Shown here: positions 1,961-57,300 of the stretch, piece by piece
Layout of the letters: each line of letters starts with the position of its first letter
How positions within the stretch are numbered: position 1 is the stretch's first letter
Origin: Planctomycetota bacterium
GTDB lineage: Bacteria; Planctomycetota; Phycisphaerae; Tepidisphaerales; Tepidisphaeraceae
NCBI GenBank assembly: GCA_026693085.1
Contig: JAPLNB010000316.1
Span: 21,474 to 85,473 of the forward strand
DNA length: 64,000 nt
Direction of reading: 5' to 3'
The notes under the pieces: generated by a model
The model's database searches: none
The model's input: only the letters and a program-made list of their open reading frames with translations
Told to the model about the DNA's origin: nothing
Translations under genes and position numbers: made by a program

Positions 1961-2470
1961 TCAGGCGGGGATGAGGGTGGGTTGGGGGGGGCGGGCGATG
2001 GTTTTCTTCATGATTTTGTCCTGGAGGCGCATGATGCCTTCGATGAGGGCTTCGGGGCGAGGGGGGCAGCCGGGGATGTAGACATCGACGGGGACAAGGA
2101 GGTCGACGCCTTTGACGACGTTGTAGCCGTACTTGAAGTAGGGTCCGCCGCCGACGGTGCAGGCACCCATGGCGATGACGTACTTGGGGTCGGCCATTTG
2201 ATGATACAGGCGTTTGAGTCGGGAGGCCATTTTGTAGTTGACGGTGCCGGCGACGATCATCAGGTCGGCTTGTCGGGGTGTGGCGCGGAAGGCGCCAGCG
2301 CCGAAGCGGTCGAGGTCGTAGCGGGGCCCGCCGACGGCCATCATCTCGATGGCGCAGCAAGCGAGGCCAAAGGTCATGGGCCAGAGGGAGTTCTTGCGAG
2401 CCCAGTTAATGGCGAAATCGACGCTGGTGATAAGGAGGTTGGCTTCGAAACGGTTCTCAATCCCGGACAT
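1961..2470 (-). CDS. nuoB: NADH-quinone oxidoreductase subunit B (Nqo6/NuoB)
   Basis: 169 aa. '[15 protein letters not shown]', '[12 protein letters not shown]' and '[12 protein letters not shown]' carry the Cys ligands of cluster N2. No nuoA or nuoC is adjacent. Confidence 0.9.
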
Positions 2471-2643
2471 CCTGGGTACGGGCTTTCGGGGCTGGGTATT
2501 ATTGCATGGGGGTGGGGGGGGTTCAAGGGCTCAAGAGCATCCATCCCAGCGGCTGCGGGAGTTCCGCAGCTGAATAACGCCTGTGGTCGCCCGCTGCCTT
2601 GAGGGCAGCCAGACAACAGTTACGGAAGGTAGGTATTCCTAAC

Positions 2644-38463: not shown

Positions 38464-41178
38464 TTATTCGATTGCGTAGTTGAACTCTCCCTTCTCGTTT
38501 ATCCCCACCTTCACCACCTTGATCGGCTGGCCCTCGGCCATGCGGGCGAGGAACTCAGCGGAAAGGTCGGGCAGGAGCGTGCGGGTCAGGATGTGGTCGA
38601 TGTTGCGTGCCCCCGTGTGGACTTCCCTGCACCGCTCGGCAATGCTGCTTACGACCTCGGGGGCGTAAGTGAAGGCGGCCTTGTAGTTCTCGCGGATGCG
38701 GCGCACTATGCGGCCAAGCTGGAGCTCGATGATCTTGCGCATGTCCGAGTCGCACAGCGGGTAGTAGGGCACGAGCGTCACGCGGCCCAGGAACGCGGGC
38801 TTGAAGGTCTTCTGGAGTTCCGGGTGCAGCGTTTCGGCCAGCGCCTGTGGGCCTGGGCGGGTCTCCGGGTCGGCGCAGAGCTTCATGATCAGGTCCGTGC
38901 CGGCGTTGGAAGTCATAATGATCACCGTGTTCTTGAAATCGATGTCGCGGCCTTCCCCGTCGCGCAGCGACCCCTTGTCAAACACCTGGTAGAAGATGTC
39001 CTGCACGCCGGGATGGGCCTTTTCCATTTCATCGAGAAGCAGAATGCTGTAGGGACGCCGGCGGACCGCCTCGGTGAGCACGCCGCCCTCGCCGTAGCCG
39101 ACGGACCCGGGAGGCGAACCCATGAGCAGCGATACCTTGTGTTCCTCCTTGAACTCCGACATGTTGATGACGGTCATGTTCTGCGTGCCGCCATAGAGCA
39201 GCTCGGCCAAGGCGATGGCGGTCTCGGTCTTGCCGACGCCGCTGGTGCCCACCATGAGGAAAACGCCGATGGGCTTGCGCGGGTCGGTCATGTTGGCCCG
39301 CGAGGTGCGCATCGCCTGGGCAATGGCATCGAGGGCGTGGCTCTGGCCGATGATCCGCTCCTCCAGCTTCTGCCGCAGCGTGAGGACGGTCTTGATCTCG
39401 TCGCGGACCATCCGGCCGACGGGGATGCCGGTCCAGCCAGAGACGATCGACGCAACCGATTGCGCATCAACACAGACGGAAACCAGGGGCGATTCGCCCT
39501 GGAGGCTCTTGAGTTGGGCGGTCAGACTTCCCATTTCACTGCGCAATCGCTCGGCTTCCTGCGGCGAGACCGGTGCCCCGGAGGGAAGCGTCTTGGCCGG
39601 AGCCTTCTCCACAAGCTTCCCGCCCGCCGCCTCCGCTGGCGCCGCGGAGGCCTCCAGCGTGCCGCGAACCCTGCGGATCTCGGTAACAAGCTGCATTTCG
39701 TCTTTCCAACGCTTCTCCAGAACGGCGAACTCGCTCTCGGCCTCCGCTCTTAGTCTGTTCAGCTCCGCCAGGCGGTCGCCATGCGCAGCACCGGCGGCGG
39801 CCTCGCGGCCGAGGATCTCGATCGCTGTGACGTACTCGTCGATGCGCCGGCGGCAATCCTCGATCGCCGGCGGCGTGGAGCTGTGTCCGATCGCCACCCG
39901 AGCGCAGGCGGTATCCAGCACGCTCACGGCCTTGTCGGGGAGCTGGCGGCCGCTGAGGTGGCGGTGCGAAAGGCGGACGGCATCGACGGCCGCCTCATCC
40001 AGGATGCGCACCTGGTGGTGTTTTTCCAGCGTCCCGATCAGGCCTCGCATCATATCGATGGCCGCCTGCTCGGAAGGCTCGTCCACTCTGACAACCTGGA
40101 AGCGACGGGCCAGAGCGGCATCCTTCTCGAAGTACTTCTTGTACTCGGCCCACGTCGTGGCGGCGATGGTCCGCAGTTCGCCGCGCGCCAGGGCCGGTTT
40201 GAGCATGTTCGCCGCGTCCCCCTGCCCGGCCGCGCCGCCCGCGCCGATCAGCGTATGGGCCTCGTCGATGAACAGGATAATGGGCGAGGGGGAGGCCTTG
40301 ACCTCTTCGATCACGCCCTTGAGCCGGTTCTCGAACTCGCCCTTGATGCCAGCGCCGGCCTGCAGCAGGCCCAGGTCCAGCGAACGGACCGACGCCCCGC
40401 GCAGTGCCGGGGGCACATCGCCGGTGGCCACGCGCTGGGCGAAAGCCTCCACGACGGCCGTCTTGCCCACGCCGGCCTCACCGGTGAGGATCGGGTTGTT
40501 CTGCCGGCGGCGGGTGAGGATATCAACAATCTGCCGGACCTCCGAATTCCGCCCCAGCACCGGGTCCACCTGCCCCGACTTGACGCGGGCGATCAGGTCG
40601 ACCGTGTACTGGTCAAGGCACGGGGTCTTGCCCGCTCCGCCCGGCCGGGGCGAGGGGGCAACTCCGGCCGCCGCGGACGGCACCGCCGCGCTCCCGGCCT
40701 CGGCCGTCGAGGCGATCAGGTCCGACAGGTCCTTGCGCAGTGCCTCGGGCTGGATCCTCTGGAGTTCCGGCGACGCCTCCCTGGCCTGACGAGCCAGGGA
40801 GTCATCCGACAACAGCGCGTAGAGAAGGTGGCTCGAGCGGACGCGGTCGGCGGCGAATTCCACCGAAGCCACCAGCCAGGCCTCCCGCACCAAGCTCACC
40901 AGGGAAGGGGAGAGCGCCGGCGGCCGTGCATTGCCGGTTTTCAGCCGATCAATCACCCGCGTCAGGTCCTGCATCACCCGCGATACATCCACTTCGTAGT
41001 AGCGGAAAAGGGCTGCCAGGTCCGTGTTCGGAGCCTCGGCCAGCTTCAGCATCCAATGCTCAATCTCTACGTTGTAGTTGGTCCGCGACAGGCAAAGCCC
41101 CGCGGCGGCCTCTAGCCCGCTCCGGCAATGGTCGTCTAGCTTCCCAATCAGGGGTTTCAGATTCAACGTGGCCATCAA
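38464..41178 (-). CDS. clpV: T6SS AAA+ disaggregase ClpV (TssH)
   Basis: 904 aa. Clp N-domain plus two AAA+ modules with Walker A 'GEAGVGKTAVVE' and 'GTSGVGKTETA'. The likely true ATG is at 41175. Confidence 0.95.
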   Translation of the reverse strand: MMATLNLKPLIGKLDDHCRSGLEAAAGLCLSRTNYNVEIEHWMLKLAEAPNTDLAALFRYYEVDVSRVMQDLTRVIDRLKTGNARPPALSPSLVSLVREAWLVASVEFAADRVRSSHLLYALLSDDSLARQAREASPELQRIQPEALRKDLSDLIASTAEAGSAAVPSAAAGVAPSPRPGGAGKTPCLDQYTVDLIARVKSGQVDPVLGRNSEVRQIVDILTRRRQNNPILTGEAGVGKTAVVEAFAQRVATGDVPPALRGASVRSLDLGLLQAGAGIKGEFENRLKGVIEEVKASPSPIILFIDEAHTLIGAGGAAGQGDAANMLKPALARGELRTIAATTWAEYKKYFEKDAALARRFQVVRVDEPSEQAAIDMMRGLIGTLEKHHQVRILDEAAVDAVRLSHRHLSGRQLPDKAVSVLDTACARVAIGHSSTPPAIEDCRRRIDEYVTAIEILGREAAAGAAHGDRLAELNRLRAEAESEFAVLEKRWKDEMQLVTEIRRVRGTLEASAAPAEAAGGKLVEKAPAKTLPSGAPVSPQEAERLRSEMGSLTAQLKSLQGESPLVSVCVDAQSVASIVSGWTGIPVGRMVRDEIKTVLTLRQKLEERIIGQSHALDAIAQAMRTSRANMTDPRKPIGVFLMVGTSGVGKTETAIALAELLYGGTQNMTVINMSEFKEEHKVSLLMGSPPGSVGYGEGGVLTEAVRRRPYSILLLDEMEKAHPGVQDIFYQVFDKGSLRDGEGRDIDFKNTVIIMTSNAGTDLIMKLCADPETRPGPQALAETLHPELQKTFKPAFLGRVTLVPYYPLCDSDMRKIIELQLGRIVRRIRENYKAAFTYAPEVVSSIAERCREVHTGARNIDHILTRTLLPDLSAEFLARMAEGQPIKVVKVGINEKGEFNYAIE

Positions 41179-41207: not shown

Positions 41208-42323
41208 CTAGACGTCGTCCAGGCGGAATGACGCGTCATACCGATCCTGCTTGACAGGAAGCGAGCACAGCCAGATGTTGCGGCCGAGCCTGGGCCGGTC
41301 CGCCCCGACGGACGCAAGCCTGCATGCGGGAACCTGGTCCGCTTGCAGCGACGGCTCCACAGCAAAATCCACCTCGATGCCGACATAGGCGCGCACCATT
41401 TCGCAGAGGGGGCGCAGGTTTGTCCCCTCCGGAAGAAACTCGCGGAATTCCTCGTAGCCCAGTGGCCCCAGGCAGATGCGGAAGTTGGACTGCACATCCC
41501 ACACCCGCTCGCCGACCACCAGCTCGCCGGTCAATCGGGCATGCTGACCGCGCGGAAGGCCCGGGCCTGGCAGGCGCGACCGGTCGCCGGCTTCCAGCAT
41601 CAGCCACTGTCCCTGGAACTGCTTCACGCGGGCTGGCACGCCGAAGTAGTCGGACAGCATCCGCTCCAGCGAAACGGCGCACCGCGGGAAATGGGCGTAA
41701 TGGCCGGCGTAGTGGACCAGCACCTCGTCAGGCAACCGGGTGTGTCCACGCAAGCCATCAGTGCCGAGCCCGACCAGCGAATAGAGCGATTGTGTGAAGG
41801 GATCGGCAGTGCCGGGCGGGGCGTGGCACCGCGCCCATTCGTAGCCGACGTAGAAACGCTGTTTCTCCCAGGCGCGGTAGAAGAGGGAGGTTAGACGGTG
41901 ATTGAACAGGTCCAGGAAATCCTGGGACGCCGCGTCCTTGTCCCGGAGTCGCTGGATCAGGAGCGAAGTGTAGTGCCTCGGCAGGACGCCCTGTGGGCCG
42001 AAGAGGCCGAGGAACGTGACGATCATCTCGGGCGAGCGTGCGGTGGTTCCTGTGCCTTCCTGCGGCACCGGGGCAGGTCGGACCTCCGCGATCGTGGAGG
42101 CCGGAAAGGCCAGCGACGGGAGCGCCCGGAATCGCACCGCTTCGCGCTCGGGCGACTGGTCGCGCCCGACGCGCGGGTCGGTCCGGTCGTTCACGGGATT
42201 GCCCGCGCGGTGCGCAGCGTCCTTCTGGAGCAGTCGCACTGCCTGGAAGAAATCGAACTGGCTGGGCTCGGCAGACAACTGATCGATCAGAGCAGAGCCC
42301 GCTCGCCCACTCGCGGCATCCAT
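41208..42323 (-). CDS. tssG: T6SS baseplate protein TssG
   Basis: 'SQFDFFQAVRLLQ' and 'IVTFLGLFGPQGVLPRHYT...FLDLFNHRLTSLFYRAW' are TssG features. ATG 42323 follows GGGGAG. The ORF-track start at 42488 is rejected. Confidence 0.9.
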   Translation of the reverse strand: MDAASGRAGSALIDQLSAEPSQFDFFQAVRLLQKDAAHRAGNPVNDRTDPRVGRDQSPEREAVRFRALPSLAFPASTIAEVRPAPVPQEGTGTTARSPEMIVTFLGLFGPQGVLPRHYTSLLIQRLRDKDAASQDFLDLFNHRLTSLFYRAWEKQRFYVGYEWARCHAPPGTADPFTQSLYSLVGLGTDGLRGHTRLPDEVLVHYAGHYAHFPRCAVSLERMLSDYFGVPARVKQFQGQWLMLEAGDRSRLPGPGLPRGQHARLTGELVVGERVWDVQSNFRICLGPLGYEEFREFLPEGTNLRPLCEMVRAYVGIEVDFAVEPSLQADQVPACRLASVGADRPRLGRNIWLCSLPVKQDRYDASFRLDDV

Positions 42324-43901
42324 TGTCGTATCTCCCCGTCGTGTTCGCTGGCAGCCACCAGCCGGGTAAATGAGTTGATCGAGGCATACAGGGTCAGGAA
42401 CCGTTCCAGGACGGCGGTGAACAGGAACGCGCTGCGATCTGAGAATCGCTGCGGGTCCAGCTTCAAGGCGACTTCCACGCCTCGGCAAACACCGCCGGAC
42501 GTGACGCCCGCGACGCGACCCACGATGCGCCGGTGGCGAATGTCCAGGACGCCGGCGATCTTGCCTCGCGTATCAGCTGTGTCGACCAGGTCGTAAAGGG
42601 AAAGGATCTCGCGCAGGGCGTCAGGCCGCCCTTCCGCATCGCCCAGCGAGAGTTGGTTGAGGACCAGATGAGAGACCAGCCGCCAGAATATTCCCTCGCG
42701 CAGCGCCGGCCGTCGCGTGGCAGTGGGCGGCGTGAGACAGCGGGTGACGACCGGCCCGCCGGCCTGCAACTGGAATCCCGGTCGCCCCCCGCCGAACGGA
42801 GGACGGCTCAGCAGGTCGAGATTGAGGCACGTGGTATGCTCGTCCAGGACCCACTCTCCGGAGAGTGCCGGCGAGTCCAAGTCGACCTGCGCCAGGAACA
42901 TCTCCGTGCTCGCGATGGGTCAACTTGATCGGCTCGGCTTTCTTCTTGAACAGGTTGACGATTGGCGTGCACCCGAGACGGAATGTCTCGCCGGAGATGT
43001 TCGTTTCCAGGTCGGTCGAGGAGCGGTCGTGGTAGAGCCGGACCTGGAGCGTGTTTCCGAACCCCTGGAGAAGAGCCGGCTCGGGCAGGGCAATGTCCAC
43101 GAACAAGAACTTCTGCGGAAATGCAAAATACTCCGACAAGAGCCGGTAACCCGGGAACGAGCGAGCCGGGCACGGCACCAGGCCCTCGCTGAGGCCGAAT
43201 CCGACGGGGTGGAGAACGCGACTGTCCAGGACAACGGGCCTGGTGTCGCCGCCCGATCGCGCCAAGGCCACCTGGAGGGTGTTGTTGAAGATCAGCTCAT
43301 AGAGTGCGAAGGCATACGGGGCCTGGCCGTGCAGGAAAAACCGGAGGCTTGGCATCCGCAGCTTGGCAAAGGTCATCTCCTCGCCGAAGCAGCGCAGGTC
43401 GATGGCCAACATCGCGGCACATGCCGATGGCAGACCCGGCGGCGGCAGGCCCAACCGAGCCAGCTCGGCTCGCGCCACCTCGATGGGCCACACCGTGGTG
43501 GGATAGCAGGTCCTGAAGCAGCAGGCGTCCCCGTCGCTATTCGGGTTCGAACCCAACAGCGACCCGGCATCGATCGGATACCCCTGGGCCAAGTCCGCCT
43601 GCCCGCGGTTCAGCTCGAACTGCGCGACAGCCATGGACGGCCAGGGCGCCAGGTAATGGGGGTACAACGCGCCCAGCATCGCCTCGGCGATCTCCGGGAA
43701 CTCATCGTCCAGCTTGCGGCGAATGCGCGCCGTGAGGAAAGCGAACGCCTCGATCAGGCGTTCAGCATGGGGATCCTGGCAGGCCTCGGGGCTGAGGCGC
43801 AACCGCTCGGCAACTCGGGGATTCTCCTGGGCAAACTGCCCGGCCAGTCGCCGGATGAAGCTCAGCTCCTGCTTGTAGTATTGCAGCAGGTCGTCGCTCA
43901 T
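42287..43901 (-). pseudogene. tssF: tssF (ImpG/VasA family) split into two frames near nt 42,900
   Basis: ORF 42621..43901 is a canonical TssF N-half up to 'PIVNLFKKKAEPIKLTHRE', then 94 aa of R/G/A-rich nonsense. ORF 42287..42901 is a TssF C-half in another frame. The two ATGs are 1000 nt apart (333 codons + 1). Confidence 0.8.
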
Positions 43902-44413
43902 CGGGCCTCTCCCTTCACCCGGAAGATCCCGTTGGCAGGCTCAAGCGTCGAGGAATACGCGACCAGCTCGGGGTTCGGCCGGACCTTGAGGACACCGTCG
44001 ATGCGGAACCGCAGCGTGCGGGTGACGGCCTCGTCTCCCTGGAGGAAGCTGACGCGCGATTCCGCAAGGCGCGGTTCGTAGCGGCGGATGATGCTCTGTA
44101 GCAGCCGCCGGAACGCTTCGCGATTGGCCTCGATATCGAGATTCGCGCTGGAGCAGTCGGGGACGCCGTAGTTGACAAGGGAGGTTTCCAGTTCCGGGTC
44201 CACGGAAGTCCCCCGTTCCGGGTCGGGCAGCGGCGACACGCAACGCCAGCGCGTATTGAGCAGGTTCTCCAAGTCCCGCCGGAGGGATTCCTTCAACTCC
44301 CGCAGGTTCTGGCCGCCGGATGCGCCCGCGTCGTCCCGGGAGCCGGAAGGCTGGTCGGTCAGCCGATCCAGGAGCGAGGGCAAGAGCGAAAGATCAGGTT
44401 CGGTCGGGGGCAC
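43898..44413 (-). CDS. tssE: T6SS baseplate protein TssE (gp25-like)
   Basis: 'LLPSLLDRLTD', 'LRRDLENLLNTR', 'SLVNYGVPD' and 'IRRYEPRL' are gp25/TssE features. 4-nt overlap with the tssF start. Confidence 0.9.
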   Translation of the reverse strand: MPPTEPDLSLLPSLLDRLTDQPSGSRDDAGASGGQNLRELKESLRRDLENLLNTRWRCVSPLPDPERGTSVDPELETSLVNYGVPDCSSANLDIEANREAFRRLLQSIIRRYEPRLAESRVSFLQGDEAVTRTLRFRIDGVLKVRPNPELVAYSSTLEPANGIFRVKGEAR

Positions 44414-44420
44414 GGGGACC

Positions 44421-45230
44421 TCAGGATGTCGCGGCCGTCGCGTCTAAACAAACCGTGTTAATCTCAACCAGGGGCATATCCTGGTCGCCGACGAGACAGA
44501 TGCGATGGCCGGCGCCGCGGACGGGCGTGCCGTCGCCGCCATGCCACTCGGTGACGCGGCCAAGCTGCACCTGCTCGTCGGCCTCCGCGTGCGAACCGGC
44601 ATAGAGCATGGCGACATAAACCTGTCCCGCGGCCGCACCACGGAGGGAGAGGCGGGCCGGCCGCCACAGGAAATCGCGGGCATGCCGCGGGGGATCGAAC
44701 TCGACCAACTCGACCTGTTCGAACGGCACCCAGTAGTACTTCCCGTTGGCGGTCAGCACCTCCAGCACGGGCGCCAGCAGGTCGTCGAGGTCGCGGAAGT
44801 CACCAAAGCTCTGTCCGTTGCAGGTCCCGGAAATGTGAGGGCGCTGGGCTTCGGCTTGTTCCAGCAGGACGGCGGCTTCAGCGAGGGCACCCTCACGCAC
44901 GCGGATGGAGGCCTCCAAGCGGAGCCGAATCCCGGCTGAGGGCGTTGCGAGGAACTCCGGCAGCCGCCCCTGGGCAAAGAAATCCTGTCTCGCCCTCTCT
45001 GCGCGGACGAGCTGCCGGAAGAGGGCGACCCCCGTCGCCGTCCTTGGATCCTGCTGACTCACAGCGTCCAGTTGGAGGTCAGCCCGGTCCAGGTCGCCCG
45101 CAAAGCACAGCATCTCGCCGAGAAAGGAGCGGGCGGCCACGTCGGCGGGCGCGGAGCGAACCGCCTCGGTTGCCGCTGCGATCGCGTCCTTGAGCGAGCC
45201 GCTCCGATAGTGTTGTTCTGCAGATGTCAT
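44421..45230 (-). CDS. tagJ: T6SS accessory protein TagJ (ImpE family)
   Basis: TPR-like N-half 'HYRSGSLKDAIAAATEAVRSAPADVAARSFLGEMLCFAGDLDRADLQLD' plus an ImpE-type C-half. GGAGAA precedes ATG 45230. Sits between tssC2 and tssE as in imp operons. Confidence 0.85.
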   Translation of the reverse strand: MTSAEQHYRSGSLKDAIAAATEAVRSAPADVAARSFLGEMLCFAGDLDRADLQLDAVSQQDPRTATGVALFRQLVRAERARQDFFAQGRLPEFLATPSAGIRLRLEASIRVREGALAEAAVLLEQAEAQRPHISGTCNGQSFGDFRDLDDLLAPVLEVLTANGKYYWVPFEQVELVEFDPPRHARDFLWRPARLSLRGAAAGQVYVAMLYAGSHAEADEQVQLGRVTEWHGGDGTPVRGAGHRICLVGDQDMPLVEINTVCLDATAATS

Positions 45231-45256
45231 TGGTTCTCCGTGAAAGGCCATCGCGG

Positions 45257-46822
45257 TCAGATCGCCGGCGCCAACTCAGTCTTCAGCGAAATGCTCGCCG
45301 TCAGCGCATCCAGCTGCGAATGCGGCAGCAGATGTATGACGCAACTGTAACTGCCGGCCTTGCCCGGCATCTCACGCACGCGCACAGCCGCCTCGCGCAG
45401 GGGAAAACGCGCTCGGGATTCGGCGCTGGGCTGTCCGGCGGCCACGTAGTTGATCAGCCAGTTGTTCAGGAAACTCTCCAGCTCTGTCGCTTCGGAGAAC
45501 GCGCCCACCTTGTCGCGCGCCAGCACCTTGAGGTAGTGGGCGAACCGAGATGCACACAGGATGTACTGCAGCATCGCAGAGATCCGCGCGTTGGCCGTGG
45601 CTATCGGCTTGTCGTAGAGCTTCGGCTTCTGCACAGACTGGTTGCTGTAGAAGACACAGAACTTGGTGTCCATGCAGTGGCAGAGGGGGATGAACCCGAG
45701 ATCGGCCAAGTCCTTCTCGCGCAGATCCCCGATCGCGGTTTCCACAGGGAAGCGCACGGCGACGTTGGGCAGATCGGTGTGTAATGCGGGAACGGTCAGG
45801 CTGCTCACCAAGCCTTGCCCCAGGACATCGCGATCGAAGCCGCGGATATCAGCCAGCCATCCGCACTGGCCAAAGGCTCGGATCAGCACGCCGCCGAAGG
45901 ACCACGCAGCGCTGCCCCAGAGGTAGCTCGATCGGCCATCAGTCTCCTCGTGGAAGCGGAAACCATCCGCCCGCGAACCGTCGTCGGCATAGGGCAGGCG
46001 CATCAGGATGCGAGGCACGGTGAGGCCCACGAAGCGAGAGTCATCGCTGTCTCGCAGCGTTTGCCAACCTCTTGCCTTCGACTCCAGACCTGCGGCATCG
46101 ACGGGGCGTTCGAGCTGCGTAAAGTCTTCCAGCCCGAGCAGATGCGGGTCTGCCGCGGCGATGAACGGCGAGAACGCCGCCGCCGCCACCTGCGCTATCT
46201 GCTGGAGCACATTCACATCGTCCCGGTGGTCTTCGCCGGGAGCTCCGACAAAGTAGTCGCCGATGAGCACGCTGAATGGAATGCCCCCTGGGGTGGCGAA
46301 TTCTTCGCTGTAGACCAGCCGGAAGAAGTGTGTCTGGTCAAACTCGATCGTTTCCGCCTCGGCCAAGTCCTTTTCAAGTTCCTTCCAAGCCACGTTCAGG
46401 ATCCGAATGCGGACATTCTCTTCGCGATAGGCCTGCTGAACCAGGAACCGTAAACCGCGCCACGAAGCCTCCAGACGCTGAAAACGCTCGTGGTGCAGAA
46501 TGGCGTTAAGCTGACGGCTGATCATCGCGTCGAGAGTGGCGATCTGGCGGCCTAGGAAGCAAGATATTGCCTGGGCAAAGCGAGATTCTCGCCCAGAAAT
46601 CGGGGCTGCCCATCCGGCCGGTGCCACGCCAAGCCGCGCAATCTCGGTCAGCATCGTCGCCCACAGGTCCGGCTGGCCGAAGGCCGCCTGGATGACTTGG
46701 CCGAGCAGATTGCTGTCCGCAGGAGCAAGGTCCGAATCGGAAGCCTCGACGGCACCCGGCCCGGTCGCCGCTGGCTGGGTCAGCCCATGCACCGCCGTCT
46801 TGCTTTCATCCAGCCTGGACAT
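45257..46822 (-). CDS. Second TssC-family sheath paralog (ImpD / TssC40-like)
   Basis: 521 aa, collinear with TssC: 'RLEASWRGLRFLV', 'FSVLIGDYF', 'DSRFVGLTVPRILMRLPY', 'GFIPLCH'. It diverges from the neighbouring tssC. Confidence 0.85.
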   Translation of the reverse strand: MSRLDESKTAVHGLTQPAATGPGAVEASDSDLAPADSNLLGQVIQAAFGQPDLWATMLTEIARLGVAPAGWAAPISGRESRFAQAISCFLGRQIATLDAMISRQLNAILHHERFQRLEASWRGLRFLVQQAYREENVRIRILNVAWKELEKDLAEAETIEFDQTHFFRLVYSEEFATPGGIPFSVLIGDYFVGAPGEDHRDDVNVLQQIAQVAAAAFSPFIAAADPHLLGLEDFTQLERPVDAAGLESKARGWQTLRDSDDSRFVGLTVPRILMRLPYADDGSRADGFRFHEETDGRSSYLWGSAAWSFGGVLIRAFGQCGWLADIRGFDRDVLGQGLVSSLTVPALHTDLPNVAVRFPVETAIGDLREKDLADLGFIPLCHCMDTKFCVFYSNQSVQKPKLYDKPIATANARISAMLQYILCASRFAHYLKVLARDKVGAFSEATELESFLNNWLINYVAAGQPSAESRARFPLREAAVRVREMPGKAGSYSCVIHLLPHSQLDALTASISLKTELAPAI

Positions 46823-46874
46823 AACAGACCCGACCTCCCGTAATGGATCGCTCTTTGCTACTGCGGCTGCCGGC

Positions 46875-48377
46875 TCACTTGGCCGCGGCCGGCAGTTTCG
46901 CCACCAGCCGCAGAGAGGTTGATAACTCCTCCATCTGCAGCCAGGGTCTCAGCCACGCCACTGCGTTGTACGATCCAGGTGAGCCGGGAATCTCGTGGAC
47001 ATCGATCCTCGCCTCGGCCAGCGGATATCGGGCTTTCATCTCAGGCGTGGGCTTCGCGTCGGCATTCACATAGGTCGCGATCCAGCGCCTCATGAAGTCC
47101 TGGCAGTCGCTGGCCTCCATGAATGAGCCGATCTTGTCCCGGGCGATCACCTTGAGGAAGTGGGCAATGCGGGACATGGCCATGATGTAGGGCAGCCGCG
47201 CCGAGATCTGCGCGTTGTCGGTGGCATTGGTGTTGTCGTACTTCTTCGGCTTCTGCGTCGTCTGCGCCCCGACAAACACAGCGTAGTCCGTGTTCTTATA
47301 GTGGCAGAGAGGCAGGAAGCCCAACTTGCTCAGCTCGCCCTCGCGCCGCTCGGTCAACGCGATTTCGGTCGGGCACTTTAAGTCCAGGTCGCCGTCTTCG
47401 GTCAGGAACGTGTGAAGGGGCAGCCCCTCGACTTTCCCGCCGCCCTCGGCGCCACGGATGGCGGTGCACCAGCCGTAGAGCGAATAGGCCGTGGTGAGGC
47501 GCTGCACCATCGCGTATGCGGCGTTCATCCAGCAGTAGTGATCATGAGGCACCGGCTTGGATTGGCCCGAGGCATCCAGCTCCGTTTCCTCGAAGTTGAA
47601 CTCCTCCACCTGCTTGCTGTTGGCGCCGTAGGGATCGCGGGCTATGACACGTGGCATGACCAGCGTGACGAACCGGGAGTCCTCCGAGTCGCGGAACGAC
47701 CGCCACTTAGTATACTCTTTTGACTGGAAGATCTGTTCCATGTCACGAGGTTTGGCCAGTTCGGTGTACGACTTCATGCCGAACATCTTCGGCGAGGCAG
47801 CGGAGATGAACGGGCAGAATGCCCCGGCGGCGATTCCGGCCATCTTGGTCAGCACCTCGATATCCTCTGGGTGGTTGCTGAACTCGTAGTCGCCGACCAG
47901 CGCCCCGTATGGCTCGCCGCCGAACATCCCGTACTGGTCCTCGTAGAGCTTCTTGAACATCTGACTCTGGTCGAACTCTTCGGCCTTCTCCAGGTCCTTG
48001 GCCAAGTCCTGCTTCGAGACGTTAAGGACCTTGATCTTGAGCTGGCTACTCGTCTCGCTGTTATAGACAAGGTACCGAAAGCCGCGCCAGGTGCCTTCCA
48101 GCTTCTGGAACTCCGGCGCGTGCATGATGACCGCCAGTTGCTTAGACAACATCTCGTCAACGGCGGCAATGGCTTTCTTCAGTGTGCGGTTAACATTCTT
48201 GTCCCATGTGGCAATGCCCTTAAGAGCCGCATCAGCCAAGGCTTCCATCATCTCCTTCACCCGGTCCGGCGGGGTCTGGGGAGTCGCTATGATAGCCTCG
48301 TCCAACAAGCTCCGTGAGGCGGATTGGGTCTGGGCGACAGCCGATGTCTGTTCTTTTTTTGCCTCTGCCATGGTCAC
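46875..48377 (-). CDS. tssC: T6SS sheath large subunit TssC (VipB)
   Basis: 500 aa. '[13 protein letters not shown]', '[10 protein letters not shown]', '[18 protein letters not shown]', '[16 protein letters not shown]', '[18 protein letters not shown]'. Overlaps or abuts the tssB stop. Confidence 0.9.
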
Positions 48378-48892
48378 TTACCGTCCTTTCCCTCGCCCTG
48401 GTCCTTCATCAGTTCTTTGAGCTTGTCGCGCCCTTCGGTCGTTTCGAGGGTCTTTTCCAGAACCTGCTCCAGGTTCCCCGAGACGTCCACCTTTGCCTGG
48501 AGGTCCCGCAGCTTTTCCCGCATCTCCAGAAGCCTGCGCAGCGGCTCGACCTGCCTGGCAACATTGGCCGGCTCGAAGTCCGCCATCGAGCGGAAACTCA
48601 GCTCGACCCCCAATTCGGTGCCGTCGTTTTTCAGCGTGTTGGCGACCCGGAGGTTGACCCCGGGAGTCATTTTGGCCATCACGCTATCGAAGTTGTCGCG
48701 GTTGATCTCGACAAACTTGCGCTCGCCAAGGGGTTTGAGCGGCTCGGTGGGGTTTCCCGAGAAGTCCCCGATCACACCGACCACGAACGGCAACTCCTTC
48801 TGGACCACGGCACCTTCGGTTTCTACTTCGTAACTGATCTTCACCCTGGGTGGGCGGACCCGCTTCAGCTTTTCATGATACGATTCAGCCAT
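48374..48892 (-). CDS. tssB: T6SS sheath small subunit TssB (VipA)
   Basis: '[31 protein letters not shown]' is the TssB signature. GGGAGA lies 7 nt before ATG 48892. Confidence 0.9.
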
Positions 48893-48955
48893 AATTCGTC
48901 TCCCATTGCACAAAACCCGTCGGCGCTCCGCAAACGAATGTCGTTATGCCGACGG

Positions 48956-50107
48956 TTAGGATTGACTTTCTTTCTCGCTCTCCGCTGCGGCCGGCTTGAC
49001 CCGGATGCCCAGCCACTCGAATCGCTCGCGGCCGGCTCCATCGGGGATCATCTCCACGAGGAGGTCCGGCAATTCCATATGGCCCCAACGCACCACTTGC
49101 TCCAGCGCGTAGCCGATGGGACTGTGCGGCTCGTTCTGCCGAAAGAACGCCGCGATCTGCTGGAGACTCCTGATCGCATCCTCGCGGTCACCGAGACAGC
49201 CGGCCCCGTCCGGGAGCATCGATGGTCCCTGACGCGAGCCCGTCACAGCGTGCGGCAGGGCCTGCGGGGAAGCGCTGACGGCCAGCTTGTCTTTCGCGAT
49301 TGACTTGACCCCATCGAGGCACTCTTCCAGCGAATCGCGGAGTTGGGTCAGGGCGGGGGCCAGCGGCCTGCCCTCGGCGTCACTGCCGCATTTCGTCTCC
49401 AGCAATTCGCCGAGCCGCGCCAACTCATCCTGTGAGCCCTGCAGGTCGGCCACGAGATCCCGGTAGAAGGCGGCCGGCGTCGCCTGGACCGCCCGCATGA
49501 ATACATCCATGCCGACACCGCCGTCCTCCTGCTGGCGGCGCTTCTGGTCGGGGTCGGTGATTCGCTCGAGCCGCACGGCCTGCTGATAGTGGAACCAGCC
49601 CAGCCGCGTGTCTTCCCCAGCCGCGGCCATGGGCACGACCCTAAGAACCGTGGGCAGAGACCTGTTCAGGCCGGCCAGGTTCGCCAAGCGTTTGTCGGCC
49701 CCCGCACTATCGCGCGAGGGGTACAACTCATCCCAGTATTGCTCGATCAGTTCCCGCGCCAGCCGCAAGCCGTCGCGCAGTCCCGTGAACCCGTGCATCC
49801 GGACCAGCCCTTCGATCAACCACGCCACAACATCCAGATCCTTGGACTTCTCGCAGAGCACTCGCGTCGCCTTCTCGATGACGGCACGCCAATCCGGCTG
49901 CGTGAAGGAATCCGCGCCTGACTCCCCCTCGGCGGGAACCTCCAGCTTGCGCTCCATCTCGCGGTTCTTTCTCCGCAAGTCCCGCAGTTCCTCGTAGGGG
50001 GAGGTTGGCGAGGTGTCCTGGCGCAGGTCCGTCCCGCAACGAGCCGCCCCGGGAATCGGGGCCAGTATCGACGCGAAATTCAATACTTCTGGATTTGCCA
50101 TGGACAC
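48956..50107 (-). CDS. tssA: T6SS protein TssA (ImpA N-terminal domain family)
   Basis: 'ILAPIPGAARCGTDLRQDTSPTSPYEELRDLR' is the ImpA_N motif. First gene of the tssABC block. Start is GTG 50107 or ATG 50101. Confidence 0.85.
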   Translation of the reverse strand: MSMANPEVLNFASILAPIPGAARCGTDLRQDTSPTSPYEELRDLRRKNREMERKLEVPAEGESGADSFTQPDWRAVIEKATRVLCEKSKDLDVVAWLIEGLVRMHGFTGLRDGLRLARELIEQYWDELYPSRDSAGADKRLANLAGLNRSLPTVLRVVPMAAAGEDTRLGWFHYQQAVRLERITDPDQKRRQQEDGGVGMDVFMRAVQATPAAFYRDLVADLQGSQDELARLGELLETKCGSDAEGRPLAPALTQLRDSLEECLDGVKSIAKDKLAVSASPQALPHAVTGSRQGPSMLPDGAGCLGDREDAIRSLQQIAAFFRQNEPHSPIGYALEQVVRWGHMELPDLLVEMIPDGAGRERFEWLGIRVKPAAAESEKESQS

Positions 50108-50226
50108 CAGTCACTCAGGATCGATTCTACAAAACAGCCACACCCACGCATTTGCTGTACGGCTATCGATTGCCACTGTACCGGCCGGCAGCGATCGCAG
50201 CAAGCCAATTTCTCTTGGCCGACTCC

Positions 50227-50970
50227 TCATTCGTCTCCAACACCCAGCAGGCGTAGTGCATGCGCCAACCGCTTCAGGGTCCGGGCGTGCAACCGGCTCG
50301 CCCAGGCCTTGCTCACCCCTATACGTCGTCCGGCTTCGGTCAGGGTCACGCCCTCGAAATAGGCCGCCCGGATCAGCGTCCCAGCTTCCGCCGGCAACCC
50401 GTCGATCAGTTCCATGAGCTTCTGGCCGATCTCACGATCAATGGCCCGCTGGGGAGGCTCTGCGCAGTCCGTCATCGCCGGGTTGGCCATCGTCCTCGAC
50501 AAGGCCTCGTCGCTGGCCAAATAGGCGATCGAAAACGTGGCGACCGTCTCGCTCAGCCACCGCACACCGTCCTCCCTGCGCGCCGCCGAGTCATCGTCTG
50601 CCGCACTCTGAACCTCCAGCAATTCGCTGGCCCGCTGCTCGTATCGTGCCGCGTGGTACTCCCACCGGCTGAACCAGGACATCTTCGACAGCCCGTCGAA
50701 AATGGCCCCTCGGATCCGGTAATATGCGTAGGTCGTGAACTGGCCGCCGCGAGAGGGATCGAAATCCCGCGCCGCCTGCGCCAGCCCGACCTGCCCGTAG
50801 GCGACCAGGTCGTCCAAGTCCACGTGAGGCGGCAGCTTGCAATGAATCTTCCAGGCCAGCGACTTCACTATCCCCTGGTGGGTCTCTATCAGATCTTGGG
50901 AAGCCCTGGCCGCCCGCAACGTGACCGTGCCACCGCCTGTGGTCGAAGATTTCTCGGCTTCACCCATCAT
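50227..50970 (-). CDS. RNA polymerase sigma factor, group 3 (FliA/WhiG, sigma-28-like)
   Basis: Region 2: 'DLDDLVAYGQVGLAQAARDFDPSRGGQFTTYAYYRIRGAIFDGL'. Region 4 HTH: 'VTLTEAGRRIGVSKAWASRLHARTLKRL'. The ATGATG at 50965-50970 overlaps the TGA of the upstream ORF. Confidence 0.8.
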   Translation of the reverse strand: MMGEAEKSSTTGGGTVTLRAARASQDLIETHQGIVKSLAWKIHCKLPPHVDLDDLVAYGQVGLAQAARDFDPSRGGQFTTYAYYRIRGAIFDGLSKMSWFSRWEYHAARYEQRASELLEVQSAADDDSAARREDGVRWLSETVATFSIAYLASDEALSRTMANPAMTDCAEPPQRAIDREIGQKLMELIDGLPAEAGTLIRAAYFEGVTLTEAGRRIGVSKAWASRLHARTLKRLAHALRLLGVGDE

Positions 50971-51364: not shown

Positions 51365-54300
51365 TCAAGGCTTTGGGCTGCCGCTCATGATGGCGGCCTT
51401 CAGTTCGTCCACCCGCCGGCCCTGCGGCCTTATCTCGTCGTTCAGCAGGATCGCGTCAACTTTCTTTGTTTCCGCCGGCGACAGGCCCAGGGCCTGCAGG
51501 CTGTTAAACAGGTCCCGCAGCGAGTTGAGGTACGTCGCAGCGTCCCTAAGTTCCTCCTTCTGTTCGACAAAGACCCTGAACTCGGCACCCAGCTTCTCCT
51601 TGCTACGATCGGGGTCGTACGCCCGCACCGCCTTCTCCATCGCAGCACGGATCTTCGGCTTCTGGTTCTCTGCCTTGCTGTCCGCGTCGGTGATGCCCAG
51701 GAAGGTCTTCTTGTACTTGGCCAGGAACTCCTCCACGACATCGTTGGCCAGACGGTCTGCGGTGACCCCTTCGGTCGCCTCGGAGCCCGTGCTGCCGGGG
51801 GTGTCATCTATCCGCTTGACACCGGTGGTCAGGTACTCGATCAGGTTCGCCGCCGCCAACTCCCGGACAGTGATGCCGATCTGCCAGAGCAGGCGGCTGG
51901 CATCGCTGGCGATGCCGCCGGACTGCATCGTGACCGGCTCCGCGTGCGGCACAGCACCGGCGATCACCGAAGCGATGTTGACGTTTGCGGGACCCTCGGG
52001 TTGGACATCAAACGGGCTGGACTTGGTCAGGCCGGTCTTGAGGTATGCCAGGGCGGCACTGCTGAGCTTGTAGCCCGTGCCTTTGGCGGCGCTCGCCGCG
52101 GAACCAGCACCGATGAAGTCGCCAAAACGCGGCACTGTGAAACCTTTTGAACCACTATCACCCGCAGTGGACACGCTGCCATCAAACGTCAGGATGCCGC
52201 CCGCCACGAAATCCACGCCAAGATCAGCGTCCTTCTGGATTCCGTCGCCCTGTGCAAAGTACAAAGGCCCTTTCGGCCGCAGCATCAGCCGGATCTCATT
52301 GGCGCGGACGGTCACATTCTCCATCGCGATGAGATCTCCGATCGTCGCCGTCGTGGAGGCGTTGATTTCCAGGCTGCCGCCGTCGATCCGGCCGTCCTTT
52401 TGTTCGTTTAAAGTGCCGGCAGCGGCGAGTTTCTGGTATGTGCCCATTTCGACGCTGTTGCCCTCAATGAGATACGTGGCACCCTTGGGCACTTCGGCAA
52501 CGATCGTCGCATTCGCCGGGATCGCTGACAGCGCCTCGCCCAGCTTGATACTGCCACCTGCCTTGATCTGTTCGCCCTGCAGCGTGATCAGGCCGGCAGC
52601 CAGATCGTCCTTGACCGTCGTGTCGGCGTGGAACTCGATATTCCCACCGACGTCCATGTTTGATACGGTGATCTTCATCGCCTCCATGACAAGGCTGCTT
52701 CCCCCAACCTGATCAGTCACCTCTCCCACAATCGTGATATCCGCGTCCGTGCTGCTCAGCGTCACATCTGCTCCAAGAGTCACGGTTCCGCGGTACATCT
52801 GATGCCCGCCCGTCCTGACCGATCCTCCGTTAATCCGCGTCGTGCCGCCCACCTCCAGGAACTCCAGGGGCGTCGCGCTCCCCACTGCTTTATCCAGCGT
52901 GGTGTTCCCGCGCAATGTCAGGCTCTCCGCGCCGGCCACTGTGCCATCCGTGGTCGATCTGAACTCAACAATCGACCCGCTCAGCGTGGTATCCTGTGTC
53001 AGAACAACGGCGTCGCCATATTCCTGTTCTTCCTTCGTCGTGATCGACCCACCCTTGATCACCGTCGTGCCGGCAGCATCTGTCAACAGGCGCAACAGCG
53101 CCGTCTTCTTGCCGACCGCCTCAAAGAACGTAGTCATCCCGGTGGCATTCACCGTCAGGGCGGATCCGCCATCCACCGTAGACACGAACGTCACCGCCGA
53201 CCCGTTCAACGTCGTGTTCGTTCCCAGAGTCACCGCGTCGTTGTATGTCTGGCCGCCGCTCGTCTTCACCGATCCGCCGTTGATGGCCGTCGTGCCAGCA
53301 GTATCCGTCAGCAGACTCGCCAGTGCCGAGGTGCTTCCCACCGCCCCGCCAAACGTCGTCCGGCCAGCGTTGACCGCCAGACTCTTCCCGCCATCCACCG
53401 TCGATGCGAACGCCACGGCCGGCCCCTTAAGCGTCGTATTCGCCCCCAGCGTCACCGGACCACTGTACTGCTGATACCCGTCCCCAGGAACCGCCGCATT
53501 GCTTGTGGCCACCGAACCGCCATTGATCCCGCTCGTCCCGTTCACCGTCAGGAACTGCAACGCCTTCCCATTGCCCACCGGGCCGCCAAACACCACGTTC
53601 CCAACTACCGCCAGGCTCTCCGTCCCCACTCCCGTCCCATTCACCGTGCTCCCGAACGTGATCGGGCTGCCCGTCAACGTCGTGTCCACGCCCAGCGTCA
53701 CCGCGTTCCCGTAGTTCTGGAAGCCATTGGTCGCGATGGCCGCCGTCCCGATCGTCGTCGTCCCCGCCCCGTTCACCGTCAGGTTGTTCACCGTCGTGAA
53801 TGCGTCGCCCAGCGTCAAAAGCCCGGAACCGGTCAGGATCAGATTCTTCCCGCCGCCTGTTACCGCGCCCAGCGTTAACGCCGTACCGCTAAGCGTCGTG
53901 TCCACGCTCAGCGTCACCGCGTTTCCGTAGTTCTGGAAGCCATTGGTCGTGATGGCCGCTGTCCCGATTGTCGTCGTCCCCGCCCCGTTCACCGTCAGGT
54001 TGTTCACCGTCGTGAATGCGTCGCCCAGTGTCAAAAGCCCGGAACCGGTCAGGATCAGATTCTTCCCGCCGCCCGTTACCGCGCCCAGCGTCAACGCCGT
54101 ACCGCTAAGCGTCGCATCCGCCCCCAGCGTCACCGGACCACTGTACTGCTGATACCCGTCCCCAGGAACCGCCGCATTGCTTGTGGCCACCGAACCGCCG
54201 TTGATCCCGCTCGTCCCGTTCACCGTCAGGAACTGCAACGCCTTCCCATTGCCCATCGGGCCGCCAAACACCACGTTCCCAACTACCGCCAGGCTCTCCG

Positions 54301-57300
54301 TCCCCACTCCCGTCCCGTTCACCGTGCTCCCGAACGTGATCGGGCTGCCCGTCAACGTCGTGTCCACGCCCAGCGTCACCGCGCCGTCATAGTCCTGCGC
54401 CCCAGCCGAGGTCACCGTGTTCGTGTTGATCCCGCTCGTCCCCGTCACGTGTAGCACGCTCAGACCCGTCACCGTGTCCGCCGCCGCATCCCCGAATACC
54501 GCGTTCCCCGTCACCGTCAGACCATTCCCGCTTCCCACCACCTTGTCCAGGAACGTCACCGTCGTGCCCGTCAGGTTCGCCGATGCCCCCAGCGTTACTT
54601 GACCACTGTACTGCTGCGCTTTTCCCGTCGTCGTCACCGATCCGCCATTCAGGTTCACTGCACCGTTGACCGTCAAATTGAACGGCCCATTCACCGTGCT
54701 CCCGAACGTGATCGGGCTGCCCGTCAACGTCGTGTCCACGCCCAGCGTCACCGCGTTCCCGTAGTCCTGGAAGCCATTGGTCGCGATGGCCGCCGTCCCG
54801 ATCGTCGTTCCGCCATCCGCTGTTGCCGCAAACGTCCCTGCCGTTACCGTTTGCGAAATCGTCAGCCCAGCCCCGTTTACGACCAGCGCGACATCCTGGC
54901 CCGCCGCGGCGATCCCCTGAACGTCCAGGGCCGCCGCATTCGTGAAGCCCAACGATCCGGTCGCGCCCACCACCTTCAGCACGCCTACCGTGTTCGCCCG
55001 GTTCAGTGTGGTCACGCCCCATGTACTCAGATCCAGTTCGCCAGCGTTGATCACTCCCGCCGTCTGGCCCAGCGTCCACGGACCACCCGCACCGGCAGTC
55101 AATGTCACCGTCTGACCGGCTGCCCCAATGCCCTGCACGTCCAGGTTGCCCGCGTTGGTGAATCCAACAGGTCCCGCCGCGCCTGTTACCTTCAACACAC
55201 CCACTGTATTCGCAGCGTTCAGCGTCGTCGTATTCCATGACGCCAGATCGAGTTCGGAACCGTTGATGATCCCGACCGTCTGCCCCAGCGTCCGCCCAGC
55301 TCCGCTCGCCGTCAACGTCACCGTCTGACCGGCCGCCCCGATCCCCTGCACATCCAGGTTACCCGCGTTCGTGAATTGAACAAAACCCGCCCCATTCGTC
55401 ACCGCCAGCTTCGCCACCGTGTTCGCGCTGTTCAGCGTCGTGTTGCCCCACTGGTCCAGCGCCAACTCGTTCGCGCCTGTATTGATAATGTCGGCCGTCT
55501 GACCCAGTGTCCACGGACCGCCCGCACCCGCTGTCAACGCCACGTCGAATCCTGACGCCCCGATGCCCTGCACATCCAGGTTACCCGCGTTCGTGAACCC
55601 GATGTTGCCCACGCCATTGGTGACCACCAGCTTCGCCACTGTGTTCTGGCGGTTTAGCGTCGTCACTCCCCATTGGTCCAACGTCAATTTTCCGGAGCCC
55701 GTATTGATCACACCCGCGGTCTGGCCCAAGCTCCACGGGCCGCCCGCTCCAGCCGTCAATGTCACGTCAAATCCCGACGCCGCGATTCCCTGAACATCCA
55801 GATTGCCGGCATCAGTAAATCCCGCATTGCCCGCCGCCGCAGCCACCTTCAGCACGCCTACCGTGTTCGCCCGGTTCAGTGTGGTTACGCCCCATGTACT
55901 CAGATCCAGTTCGCCAGCGTTGATCACTCCCGCCGTCTGGCCCAGCGTCCACGGACCACCCGCACCGGCAGTCAATGTCACCGTCTGACCGGCCCCAGCG
56001 ATCCCCTGCACGTCAAGATTCGCAGCATCCGTGAACTGCACCGACCTCGCCCCGTTCGTCACCAGCAACTTGGCCACCGTATTCGCACTGTTCAGCGTCG
56101 TGACGCCCCACCCATCCAGCGCCAACTGATTCGCCCCCGTGTTGATAATCCCGCCCTGGCCCAGTGTCCACGGGCCGCCCACATCGGCCGTCAGCGTCAC
56201 GTCGTAACCGCTGCCTGCAATCCCACCCACCATCAGGTTCGCCGCATTCGTGAACTGAACCAACCCGCCAGCGCCGCTGATCGTCAGCGTGCCCACGGCA
56301 TTGCCTGCGTCAGTCAACGTGATCGGTCCGCCGGCGCCGATGCTCAGCGCACTGGCCTCGATCTTCGCCGTCTGGTCCAGATCGCCCGTTCCGACCGTCA
56401 GCGCCGCCGTCCCGTTCACCGCCGACATCGCTCCGTCGACGTGCAAAGCCGAAGCATTGAAAACCTTGATCGCCTGGGCATTGTTGCTCGTCGTCGTCAA
56501 CGGCCCCGTCGTCACCACCCCGGCCCCGCCATCGATGGAGATCTTGCCACTGCCGGCGTCAACGGTCACCGCGGCTTGCGTGACCGTCGTGCCTTCCAAC
56601 GCCAGATTACCCGACACGCCGGTGATGCCGGCGTTGATCGTCAACAGCCCGTTCGACTTAAGGGCCACATCCTGGCTGCCGTACGTGAGCGCCTTGTTCA
56701 ACGTGACCGCCCCGCCCAGGCCGGTCTTGGTGTCCACCGTCAGCTTGTTGTTTCCCGCCGCGATTTCATCACCCAGCGTCACGAAACCGGCCCCGGTGAT
56801 CGTCAGCTCGGCGCCGAGCGCCAGCGTGCCCGGAGCGTCGGCGAATCCGCCGTTGCCCAAGAAGTGCAGCGTCACGACCTTACCGGTGTTGTCAAACGAT
56901 TCGGTAAACGTGCCCGTCGCCAGGTTGATCGTGTCCCCGCTGGCCGCCGCAGCGTTCAGCGCATCCTGAACGTTGGAGTAGTTGCCCACGCCCAGCGTCG
57001 CCGGGGCAAACGCGATGCCCGTCGGCGTGAAGCTGGGACTGGCCGAACTCGAGCCGCTTCCGTTCAGCCACGTCACAAACGTCACCAACCCGCTCGCCAC
57101 ATCCCCCTGGCTAGTCACATTGAACGTGTTGACCGCGACGTTCGGCCCATTGGCGCTGCCCCACCAGTTGTTGGTCGCATCCACCGTCACCGTCGAGTTG
57201 TTCTGGAACCCGGCCGTCGTGTTGCCGGCGACATGGTTGTTCTGCACCGTCATCGTTCCGCTGAGCCCCGGCGCTCCGCCGCCGCCGATGTAGATGCCGA

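What the first reader, a model, noticed from the sequence alone, without database searches (positions are those of the whole stretch)
42287..43901. Core baseplate gene tssF is broken by a frame change, probably an internal deletion
The N-half frame reads sensibly up to '...PIVNLFKKKAEPIKLTHRE' and then gives 94 aa of Arg/Gly/Ala-rich nonsense. The C-half ('FLAQVDLDSPALSGEWVLDEHTTCLNLDLL...') is in a frame offset by one nucleotide: the two ATGs are 1000 nt apart.

The second frame is closed by TGA at 42920-42922, so the switch must lie within ~42,899-42,919. No homopolymer or slippery heptamer is visible there.

The joined product would be ~535 aa. From memory, canonical TssF is ~580-620 aa, with ~70-90 aa between PIVNLF and the 'ylslvD' segment; here that gap is ~17 aa. 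An out-of-frame deletion of roughly 180 nt is therefore more likely than a simple indel. If real, the apparatus is inactive in this strain even though all other genes look intact.
Basis: partly seen in the sequence, partly recalled or inferred. Interest (0 to 1): 0.6.

Follow-up and report, generated by a model that had tools for sequence, protein, structure and literature searches.

The report
Broken tssF is an assembly artefact
The type VI secretion baseplate gene tssF is split in this deposited metagenome-assembled genome by a missing 206-base piece, but independent assemblies of the same strain carry the gene whole, so the break is most likely an assembly error and not biology.

Summary
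tssF (minus strand, 43901-42287) reads correctly to 42910, then changes frame. Pfam PF05947 matches positions 1-333 in the first part and 408-608 in the second.

Alignment with relatives that are 96-98% identical in DNA shows that exactly 206 nt (68 codons + 2 nt) are missing between 42910 and 42909. Only a 2-nt microhomology marks the ends.

The conclusion that this strain has a dead T6SS is not supported:
- Logan contigs of run X1 are identical to the window over almost all of its 64 kb, and they run without gaps through the 206-nt segment.
- A second run of the same study (X14), three related strains and eleven other contigs also carry the intact 606-aa gene.
- No public run or JGI contig holds the deleted junction.
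- Six substitutions found only in the deposit, at least five of them transversions, lie within 90 nt on one side of the junction.
- A second site (~2539) has the same signature: 132 nt missing plus at least nine private transversions.

Most likely, aberrant low-quality reads were built into the assembly. All other T6SS genes are intact.

The parts
42910..43901 (-). tssF, N-terminal part (codons 1-331), in frame with ATG 43901
   Evidence: PF05947 positions 1-333/608, E 4.7e-124. 98.5% aa identity to residues 1-331 of the intact 606-aa relative. No differences from the X1 contig over this part.
42908..42911 (-). Deletion junction. 206 nt present in every other assembly are absent between 42910 and 42909. 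GC at 42909-42908 fits either side.
   Evidence: MAFFT gap of exactly 206 columns against L081-L089. X1, X2 and X3 contigs carry about 204-206 extra letters here. blastn block ends at 42908/42909.
42287..42909 (-). tssF, C-terminal part (residues 401-606 of the intact protein), one nucleotide out of frame with the N part; stop at 42287-42289
   Evidence: PF05947 positions 408-608/608, E 4.9e-53. 94.7% aa identity to residues 401-606 of the relative.
42621..42909 (-). Out-of-frame tail of the N-part ORF (about 95 aa of Arg/Gly/Ala-rich junk), not a real product
   Evidence: Translation. No Pfam match beyond residue 332.
42819..42905 (.). Cluster of six deposit-only substitutions next to the junction: 42819, 42836, 42840, 42848, 42888 and one of 42905/42899. 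At least five are transversions. Five of the seven candidate positions change an amino acid, including the conserved R of the NRDLP motif.
   Evidence: X1 contigs and all relatives carry the other letter. X1 has only isolated differences from the window over the rest of 34-53 kb.
43898..44413 (-). tssE (GPW_gp25), intact, overlaps the tssF start
   Evidence: 171 of 171 aa aligned, 98% identity to the relative, no stops. PF04965 on the orthologue.
41208..42323 (-). tssG, intact, overlaps the tssF end
   Evidence: 377 of 377 aa aligned, 93% identity, no stops. PF06996 on the L087 orthologue.
38464..41178 (-). clpV (tssH), intact
   Evidence: 903 of 903 aa aligned, 98% identity, no stops.
2329..2539 (.). 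Second site with the same artefact signature. 132 nt present in the X1 contig are missing at about 2539, with at least nine deposit-only transversions at 2434-2497.
   Evidence: X1 823-nt contig: record 1-481 lies on 3019-2539 and record 613-823 on 2539-2329, with 10 differences. X14's 232-nt contig agrees with X1.

Best explanation
The 206-nt gap in tssF belongs to the deposited assembly and not to the organism. The window comes from a metagenome-assembled genome of a Planctomycetota-like bacterium from freshwater sediment. At two places in this 64-kb window, the assembler took a path that lacks 132 or 206 nt. In each case the next 90-105 nt on one side carry a run of substitutions seen in no other data set.

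This is what one or a few aberrant reads would give: a chimeric or template-jumped molecule with an error-rich 3' tail, built into the contig. The real gene in this strain is a normal single-frame tssF of about 606 aa, sitting in an otherwise intact tssA-tssB-tssC-tssC-impE-tssE-tssF-tssG-clpV operon.

Shown: the intact form exists in the same strain and nothing else holds the deleted form. Inferred: the exact technical cause.
For: 1. Same strain, intact gene. X1 contigs show only isolated single-base differences from the window over about 60 kb outside the two anomalous sites. The 8071-nt X1 contig is identical to the window over 42908-50742. It then carries the extra segment, and on the intact JGI locus L091 it aligns from 600 to 1956 with 0 gaps. 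The three X1 substitutions inside the segment create no stop codon.

2. Second run. X14, a different sample of the same study, has a 224-nt contig spanning the left boundary in intact form. It shares the strain's SNPs.

3. Relatives. Two related lineages, 97.6% and 96.4% identical in DNA, encode a single-frame 606-aa TssF on 9 contigs from ENA, JGI and Logan assemblies. Contigs of runs X2, X3, X4 and X13 also cross the boundaries in intact form.

4. The deleted form is found nowhere else. None of 25 listed runs holds more than 1 of 8 sampled words of the junction stretch. The junction pattern has 0 hits in JGI metagenome contigs, while the intact pattern has 2.

5. Error-like signature. Six deposit-only substitutions lie within 90 nt on one side of the junction, and at least five are transversions. 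Among natural private differences of this strain, 70% are transitions (73 of 105). The changes hit conserved residues: L to Q in LxLVDL and R to L in NRDLP.

6. Recurrence. At about 2539, near the start of nuoB, the deposit lacks 132 nt and has at least nine private transversions at 2434-2497, against both X1 and X14. About 11 of the roughly 15 private changes at the two sites are A<->C or G<->T.

7. No other indel separates the window from the relatives across 6994 nt of the operon. All other T6SS genes are full length.
Against: - Raw reads could not be seen. X1 and X14 are held only as Logan contigs, which drop rare variants, so a minority haplotype carrying the deletion cannot be excluded.
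- It is not proven that X1 is the run the MAG was assembled from. No listed run holds the anomalous words.
- I cannot name the assembler step that would prefer an aberrant path over one covered about 8x. At site 2 the X1 contig shows no coverage break.
- Substitution clusters beside a deletion could in principle come from error-prone break repair in vivo.
Confidence: 0.8

Rival explanations
1. Real minority haplotype. Some cells of this population carry a genuine 206-nt deletion in tssF and so lack a working T6SS. The assembler happened to follow that rare path, while the dominant genotype is intact.
For: Logan contigs cannot show rare variants (tool note). X1's contigs break at 42878-42892, right next to the junction, which could reflect a graph branch. 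Loss of T6SS genes within populations is known in general (my own knowledge, not tested here).
Against: A real deletion does not explain six private substitutions, nearly all transversions, confined to 90 nt on one side. It also does not explain the same pattern at an unrelated intergenic/nuoB site. No junction words occur in any run. There are no repeats at the endpoints, only 2 nt of microhomology.
Confidence: 0.12
2. Fixed real deletion. The MAG's source population is a distinct clone in which tssF is truly deleted and frameshifted, so its T6SS is dead.
For: The deposited sequence itself. The C-terminal 204-aa ORF is annotated as a separate protein in NCBI nr.
Against: X1 and X14, from the same study, hold the same strain with the gene intact and with almost no other differences from the window. 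All eight neighbouring T6SS genes are intact at 93-99% aa identity, so there is no decay. The error-like cluster recurs at a second site.
Confidence: 0.06
3. Genuinely split or recoded tssF: two polypeptides, or a programmed frameshift, giving a functional baseplate.
For: None beyond the two open frames.
Against: Sixty-nine residues (332-400) are absent altogether, not merely shifted in frame. They match EAEC TssF residues about 319-387, most of which lie within the modelled part of the cryo-EM structure. There is no slippery site. Among the closest relatives there are two sequences of 606 aa (P0001, P0122), and the more distant homologues listed are nearly all 605-635 aa single-frame proteins.
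Confidence: 0.01

Closest known systems
TssF (ImpG/VasA), T6SS baseplate wedge subunit; solved in the EAEC TssK-TssF-TssG complex (PDB 6GIY, 6GJ1, 6N38; PMC6300606)
   Same: Both halves match PF05947 and TIGR03359. The gene sits between tssE and tssG. The intact 606-aa relative (98% identical in the N part) aligns with EAEC TssF over residues 2-598, E 1.3e-60.
   Different: The deposited copy lacks residues 332-400 and is frameshifted. The same strain's gene in independent contigs is complete.
Local misassembly in short-read metagenome-assembled genomes (chimeric or erroneous reads built into contigs, producing false pseudogenes)
   Same: The deletion is specific to the deposit. There are no repeats at the ends. 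Private substitutions form a one-sided cluster on the scale of a read length, and most are A<->C or G<->T. I recall these as the typical Illumina four-channel confusions; I did not check this against the literature here. The signature occurs at two places in 64 kb.
   Different: The responsible pipeline step is unknown. The intact path has normal depth in X1, so it is unclear why the aberrant path was chosen.

Membership tests
TssF (PF05947 / TIGR03359) | Full-length match to the family profile in one reading frame (about 600 aa) | tested here: not met
   In the deposited letters the match is split: profile 1-333 in one frame and 408-608 in another, with 334-407 absent. The TIGR03359 whole-protein cut-off of 260.3 bits is passed by the N part (379) but not by the C part (165.9). 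X1 contigs of the same strain align without gaps to the intact gene.
TssF (PF05947 / TIGR03359) | Position in a T6SS core operon between tssE and tssG | tested here: met
   tssE at 43898-44413 and tssG at 41208-42323 flank the gene with overlapping ends. tssB, tssC x2, impE and clpV are all intact.
TssF (PF05947 / TIGR03359) | Sequence homology along the whole length of structurally solved TssF | tested here: met
   This was tested on the intact relative P0001: residues 2-598 align with 6giy_A residues 2-579, E 1.3e-60. The deposited copy lacks the part aligned to EAEC residues about 319-387.
Programmed ribosomal frameshift or split gene | Slippery site, conservation of the two-frame arrangement in relatives, and no loss of coding content | tested here: not met
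   No slippery heptamer or homopolymer. The closest relatives are single-frame 606-aa proteins, as are nearly all listed homologues. Sixty-nine codons are missing.
Assembly artefact | Absent from independent assemblies of the same strain and sample; no support in other data | tested here: met
   X1 and X14 contigs are intact. The junction is absent from the indexed runs and from JGI contigs.
Assembly artefact | No or negligible support for the junction in the raw reads of the source run | not testable with these tools
   The runs are held only as Logan contigs. Raw reads were not available.

The most novel reading that the evidence does not exclude
The deletion and the flanking substitution cluster are both real and arose in vivo. 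On this reading, a mutagenic break-repair process in this planctomycete leaves deletions of 130-210 nt with about 100 nt of one-sided, transversion-rich synthesis. It struck twice in 64 kb and in one case produced a T6SS-null subclone.
Probability: 0.04. Interest if true: 0.45.

Novelty: not a real feature. Interest (0 to 1): 0.08.

Why it matters
Its main value is as a caution. A core T6SS gene annotated as two fragments in a public MAG would be scored as "T6SS inactive" or "pseudogenised" in comparative surveys, yet the organism almost certainly has a complete system. The recurring signature is a short deletion plus a read-length, one-sided cluster of transversions that independent contigs of the same run lack. 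It gives a practical way to flag false pseudogenes in low-coverage MAGs. It also matters for earlier notes on this genome's unusual T6SS regulatory genes, because the cluster should be treated as functional.

Tried and rejected
The window's own genome and its close relatives could not be searched, so a second tssF copy elsewhere in the genome was not tested.
I fetched the same JGI contig through the DNA search instead.
- The look-up of encoding contigs found no record for the deposit's 204-aa C-terminal ORF.
- The 206-nt segment is not relocated elsewhere in the window: blastn gave only chance hits.
- A repeat-mediated or hairpin-mediated origin is not supported. There are no direct repeats at the endpoints, only a 2-nt GC microhomology. 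A 7-bp stem brackets the segment in the minimum-energy fold, but the fold is no better than shuffled sequence (z = 0.00).
- A foldback artefact around the 16-nt palindrome at 42852-42867 was rejected by inspection, because the flanks are not reverse complements of each other.
- A mis-join through similarity between the start of the segment and the post-junction sequence was rejected, because they are not similar.
- No run holds the anomalous stretch of the second site either.

Full report
**1. What is in the sequence**

On the minus strand, an ORF starts at ATG 43901. It reads as a typical TssF up to '...GCTPIVNLFKKKAEPIKLTHRE' at about 42910, then continues as roughly 95 aa of Arg/Gly/Ala-rich junk to a stop at 42621. 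A frame offset by one nucleotide is closed by TGA (plus-strand TCA at 42920-42922). It then reads 'STEMFLAQVDLDSPALSGEWVLDEHTTCLNLDLL...' to the stop at 42287-42289.

Pfam PF05947 covers profile positions 1-333 of 608 in the first part (E 4.7e-124) and 408-608 in the second (E 4.9e-53). TIGR03359 gives 1-325 and 412-600.

**2. What is missing**

A scan of species-representative genomes found only distant relatives (at most 55% aa identity, mostly Planctomycetota MAGs), with TssF of 603-621 aa. In the alignment, the window has nothing between 'KLTHRE' and 'TEMFLAQVDLD', where the homologues have about 70-80 residues.

The large protein collection holds a 606-aa TssF that is 98% identical to the N part (P0001) and a sister sequence (P0122). 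Together they are encoded on nine contigs from ENA, JGI and Logan assemblies. A DNA alignment with these contigs (97.6% and 96.4% identity) shows one gap of exactly 206 columns, between window 42910 and 42909. The dinucleotide GC fits either side.

206 nt is 68 codons plus 2 nt, which accounts for the frame offset. Residues 332-400 are lost. The intact relative aligns end to end with the solved EAEC TssF (6GIY, 6GJ1, 6N38; E 1.3e-60). The lost residues correspond to EAEC residues about 319-387, most of which lie within the modelled part of the cryo-EM structure. The segment is not a dispensable linker, and no recoding could restore it.

**3. Is the deletion real in the organism?**

The window comes from a freshwater-sediment MAG. 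Run X1 holds 87% of the sampled words of 42400-43400. The missing share is about what the anomalous stretch alone would account for. Over about 60 kb of the window, X1's Logan contigs match the deposit apart from a few isolated single-base differences, so it is the same strain and probably the source sample.

- X1's 8071-nt contig is identical to the window from 50742 down to 42908. It then carries about 206 extra letters before rejoining at 42909-42878.
- On the intact JGI locus L091, this contig aligns from 600 to 1956 with no gap, across the whole segment. A second X1 contig continues from 1942 onward.
- The three X1 substitutions inside the segment are N>S, D>G and a silent change. None creates a stop.
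- Run X14, another sample of the same study, has a 224-nt contig that spans the left boundary in intact form and shares the strain's SNPs.
- Contigs of X2, X3, X4 and X13 also cross the boundaries in intact form.
- Conversely, no listed run holds more than 1 of 8 sampled words of the junction stretch.
- The junction pattern has no hit in JGI metagenome contigs, whereas the intact pattern has two.

**4. An error-like signature that recurs**

The deposit differs from X1's own contigs at 42819, 42836, 42840, 42848, 42888 and at one of 42905/42899. These positions all lie within 90 nt on the low-coordinate side of the junction. At least five of the six changes are transversions.

By contrast, the strain's natural private differences are 70% transitions (73 of 105 over 6994 nt). 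The private changes replace conserved residues: L>Q in the LxLVDL motif, R>L in NRDLP and V>E.

A second place shows the same pattern. At about 2539, the X1 823-nt contig has 132 nt that the deposit lacks. The deposit also has at least nine private transversions at 2434-2497, and X14's contig agrees with X1. This site lies at and just upstream of the start of nuoB (1961-2470) and has no connection with T6SS.

About 11 of the roughly 15 private changes at the two sites are A<->C or G<->T. I recall these as the characteristic four-channel Illumina confusions, but I did not check that here.

A deletion followed by an error-rich stretch of about read length, seen twice and only in the deposit, points to aberrant reads built into the contig. 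I cannot name the exact pipeline step. The endpoints have no repeats and no significant structure.

**5. Context**

Relative to the intact relatives, there is no other indel across 6994 nt upstream. The genes tssA, tssB, two tssC paralogues, impE, tssE, tssG, clpV and two downstream ORFs are all full length, with no stops, at 83-99% aa identity. Nothing suggests a decaying system.

**6. Verdict**

The break is almost certainly not a property of the strain.

| Reading | Probability |
|---|---|
| Assembly artefact | about 0.8 |
| Real but minor haplotype | about 0.12 |
| Fixed real deletion | about 0.06 |
| Recoding or split gene | about 0.01 |

**Limits**

- Only Logan contigs were available for the relevant runs, not raw reads.
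- The identity of the MAG's source run is inferred, not known.

Noticed in passing
window 2329-2539: The deposit lacks 132 nt that X1's 823-nt contig holds at about 2539. It also carries at least nine deposit-only transversions at 2434-2497, overlapping the 5' end of nuoB (1961-2470, minus strand). X14 agrees with X1. This is the same signature as at tssF.
   Followed up: partly
window 7393-7404: Three differences between the deposit and the X1 contig within 12 nt (C>A, G>A, G>A), in the middle of a 5898-nt contig. Isolated single differences also occur at 4178, 11830, 39104 and 52198.
   Followed up: no
window 45260-48371 (minus strand): Two tandem tssC (VipB) paralogues of 498 and 521 aa, only about 40% identical to each other. 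Both are conserved in the close relatives.
   Followed up: no
window 53300-56000: Region of raised and uneven depth in X1. An X14 contig skips 873 nt (54969 to 55843) with 43 nt fitting both sides. This looks like variation in repeat copy number within a repetitive gene.
   Followed up: no
L003, L029, L070 (tssF loci of other Planctomycetota MAGs): The tssF reading frame ends early in these records (510, 564 and 437 aa instead of about 610). This suggests frame errors or breaks in other MAG deposits too.
   Followed up: no
window 42852-42867: Perfect 16-nt palindrome CACTCTCCGGAGAGTG inside tssF, conserved in the relatives (it encodes part of 'LSGEW'). It shows no link to the deletion.
   Followed up: partly
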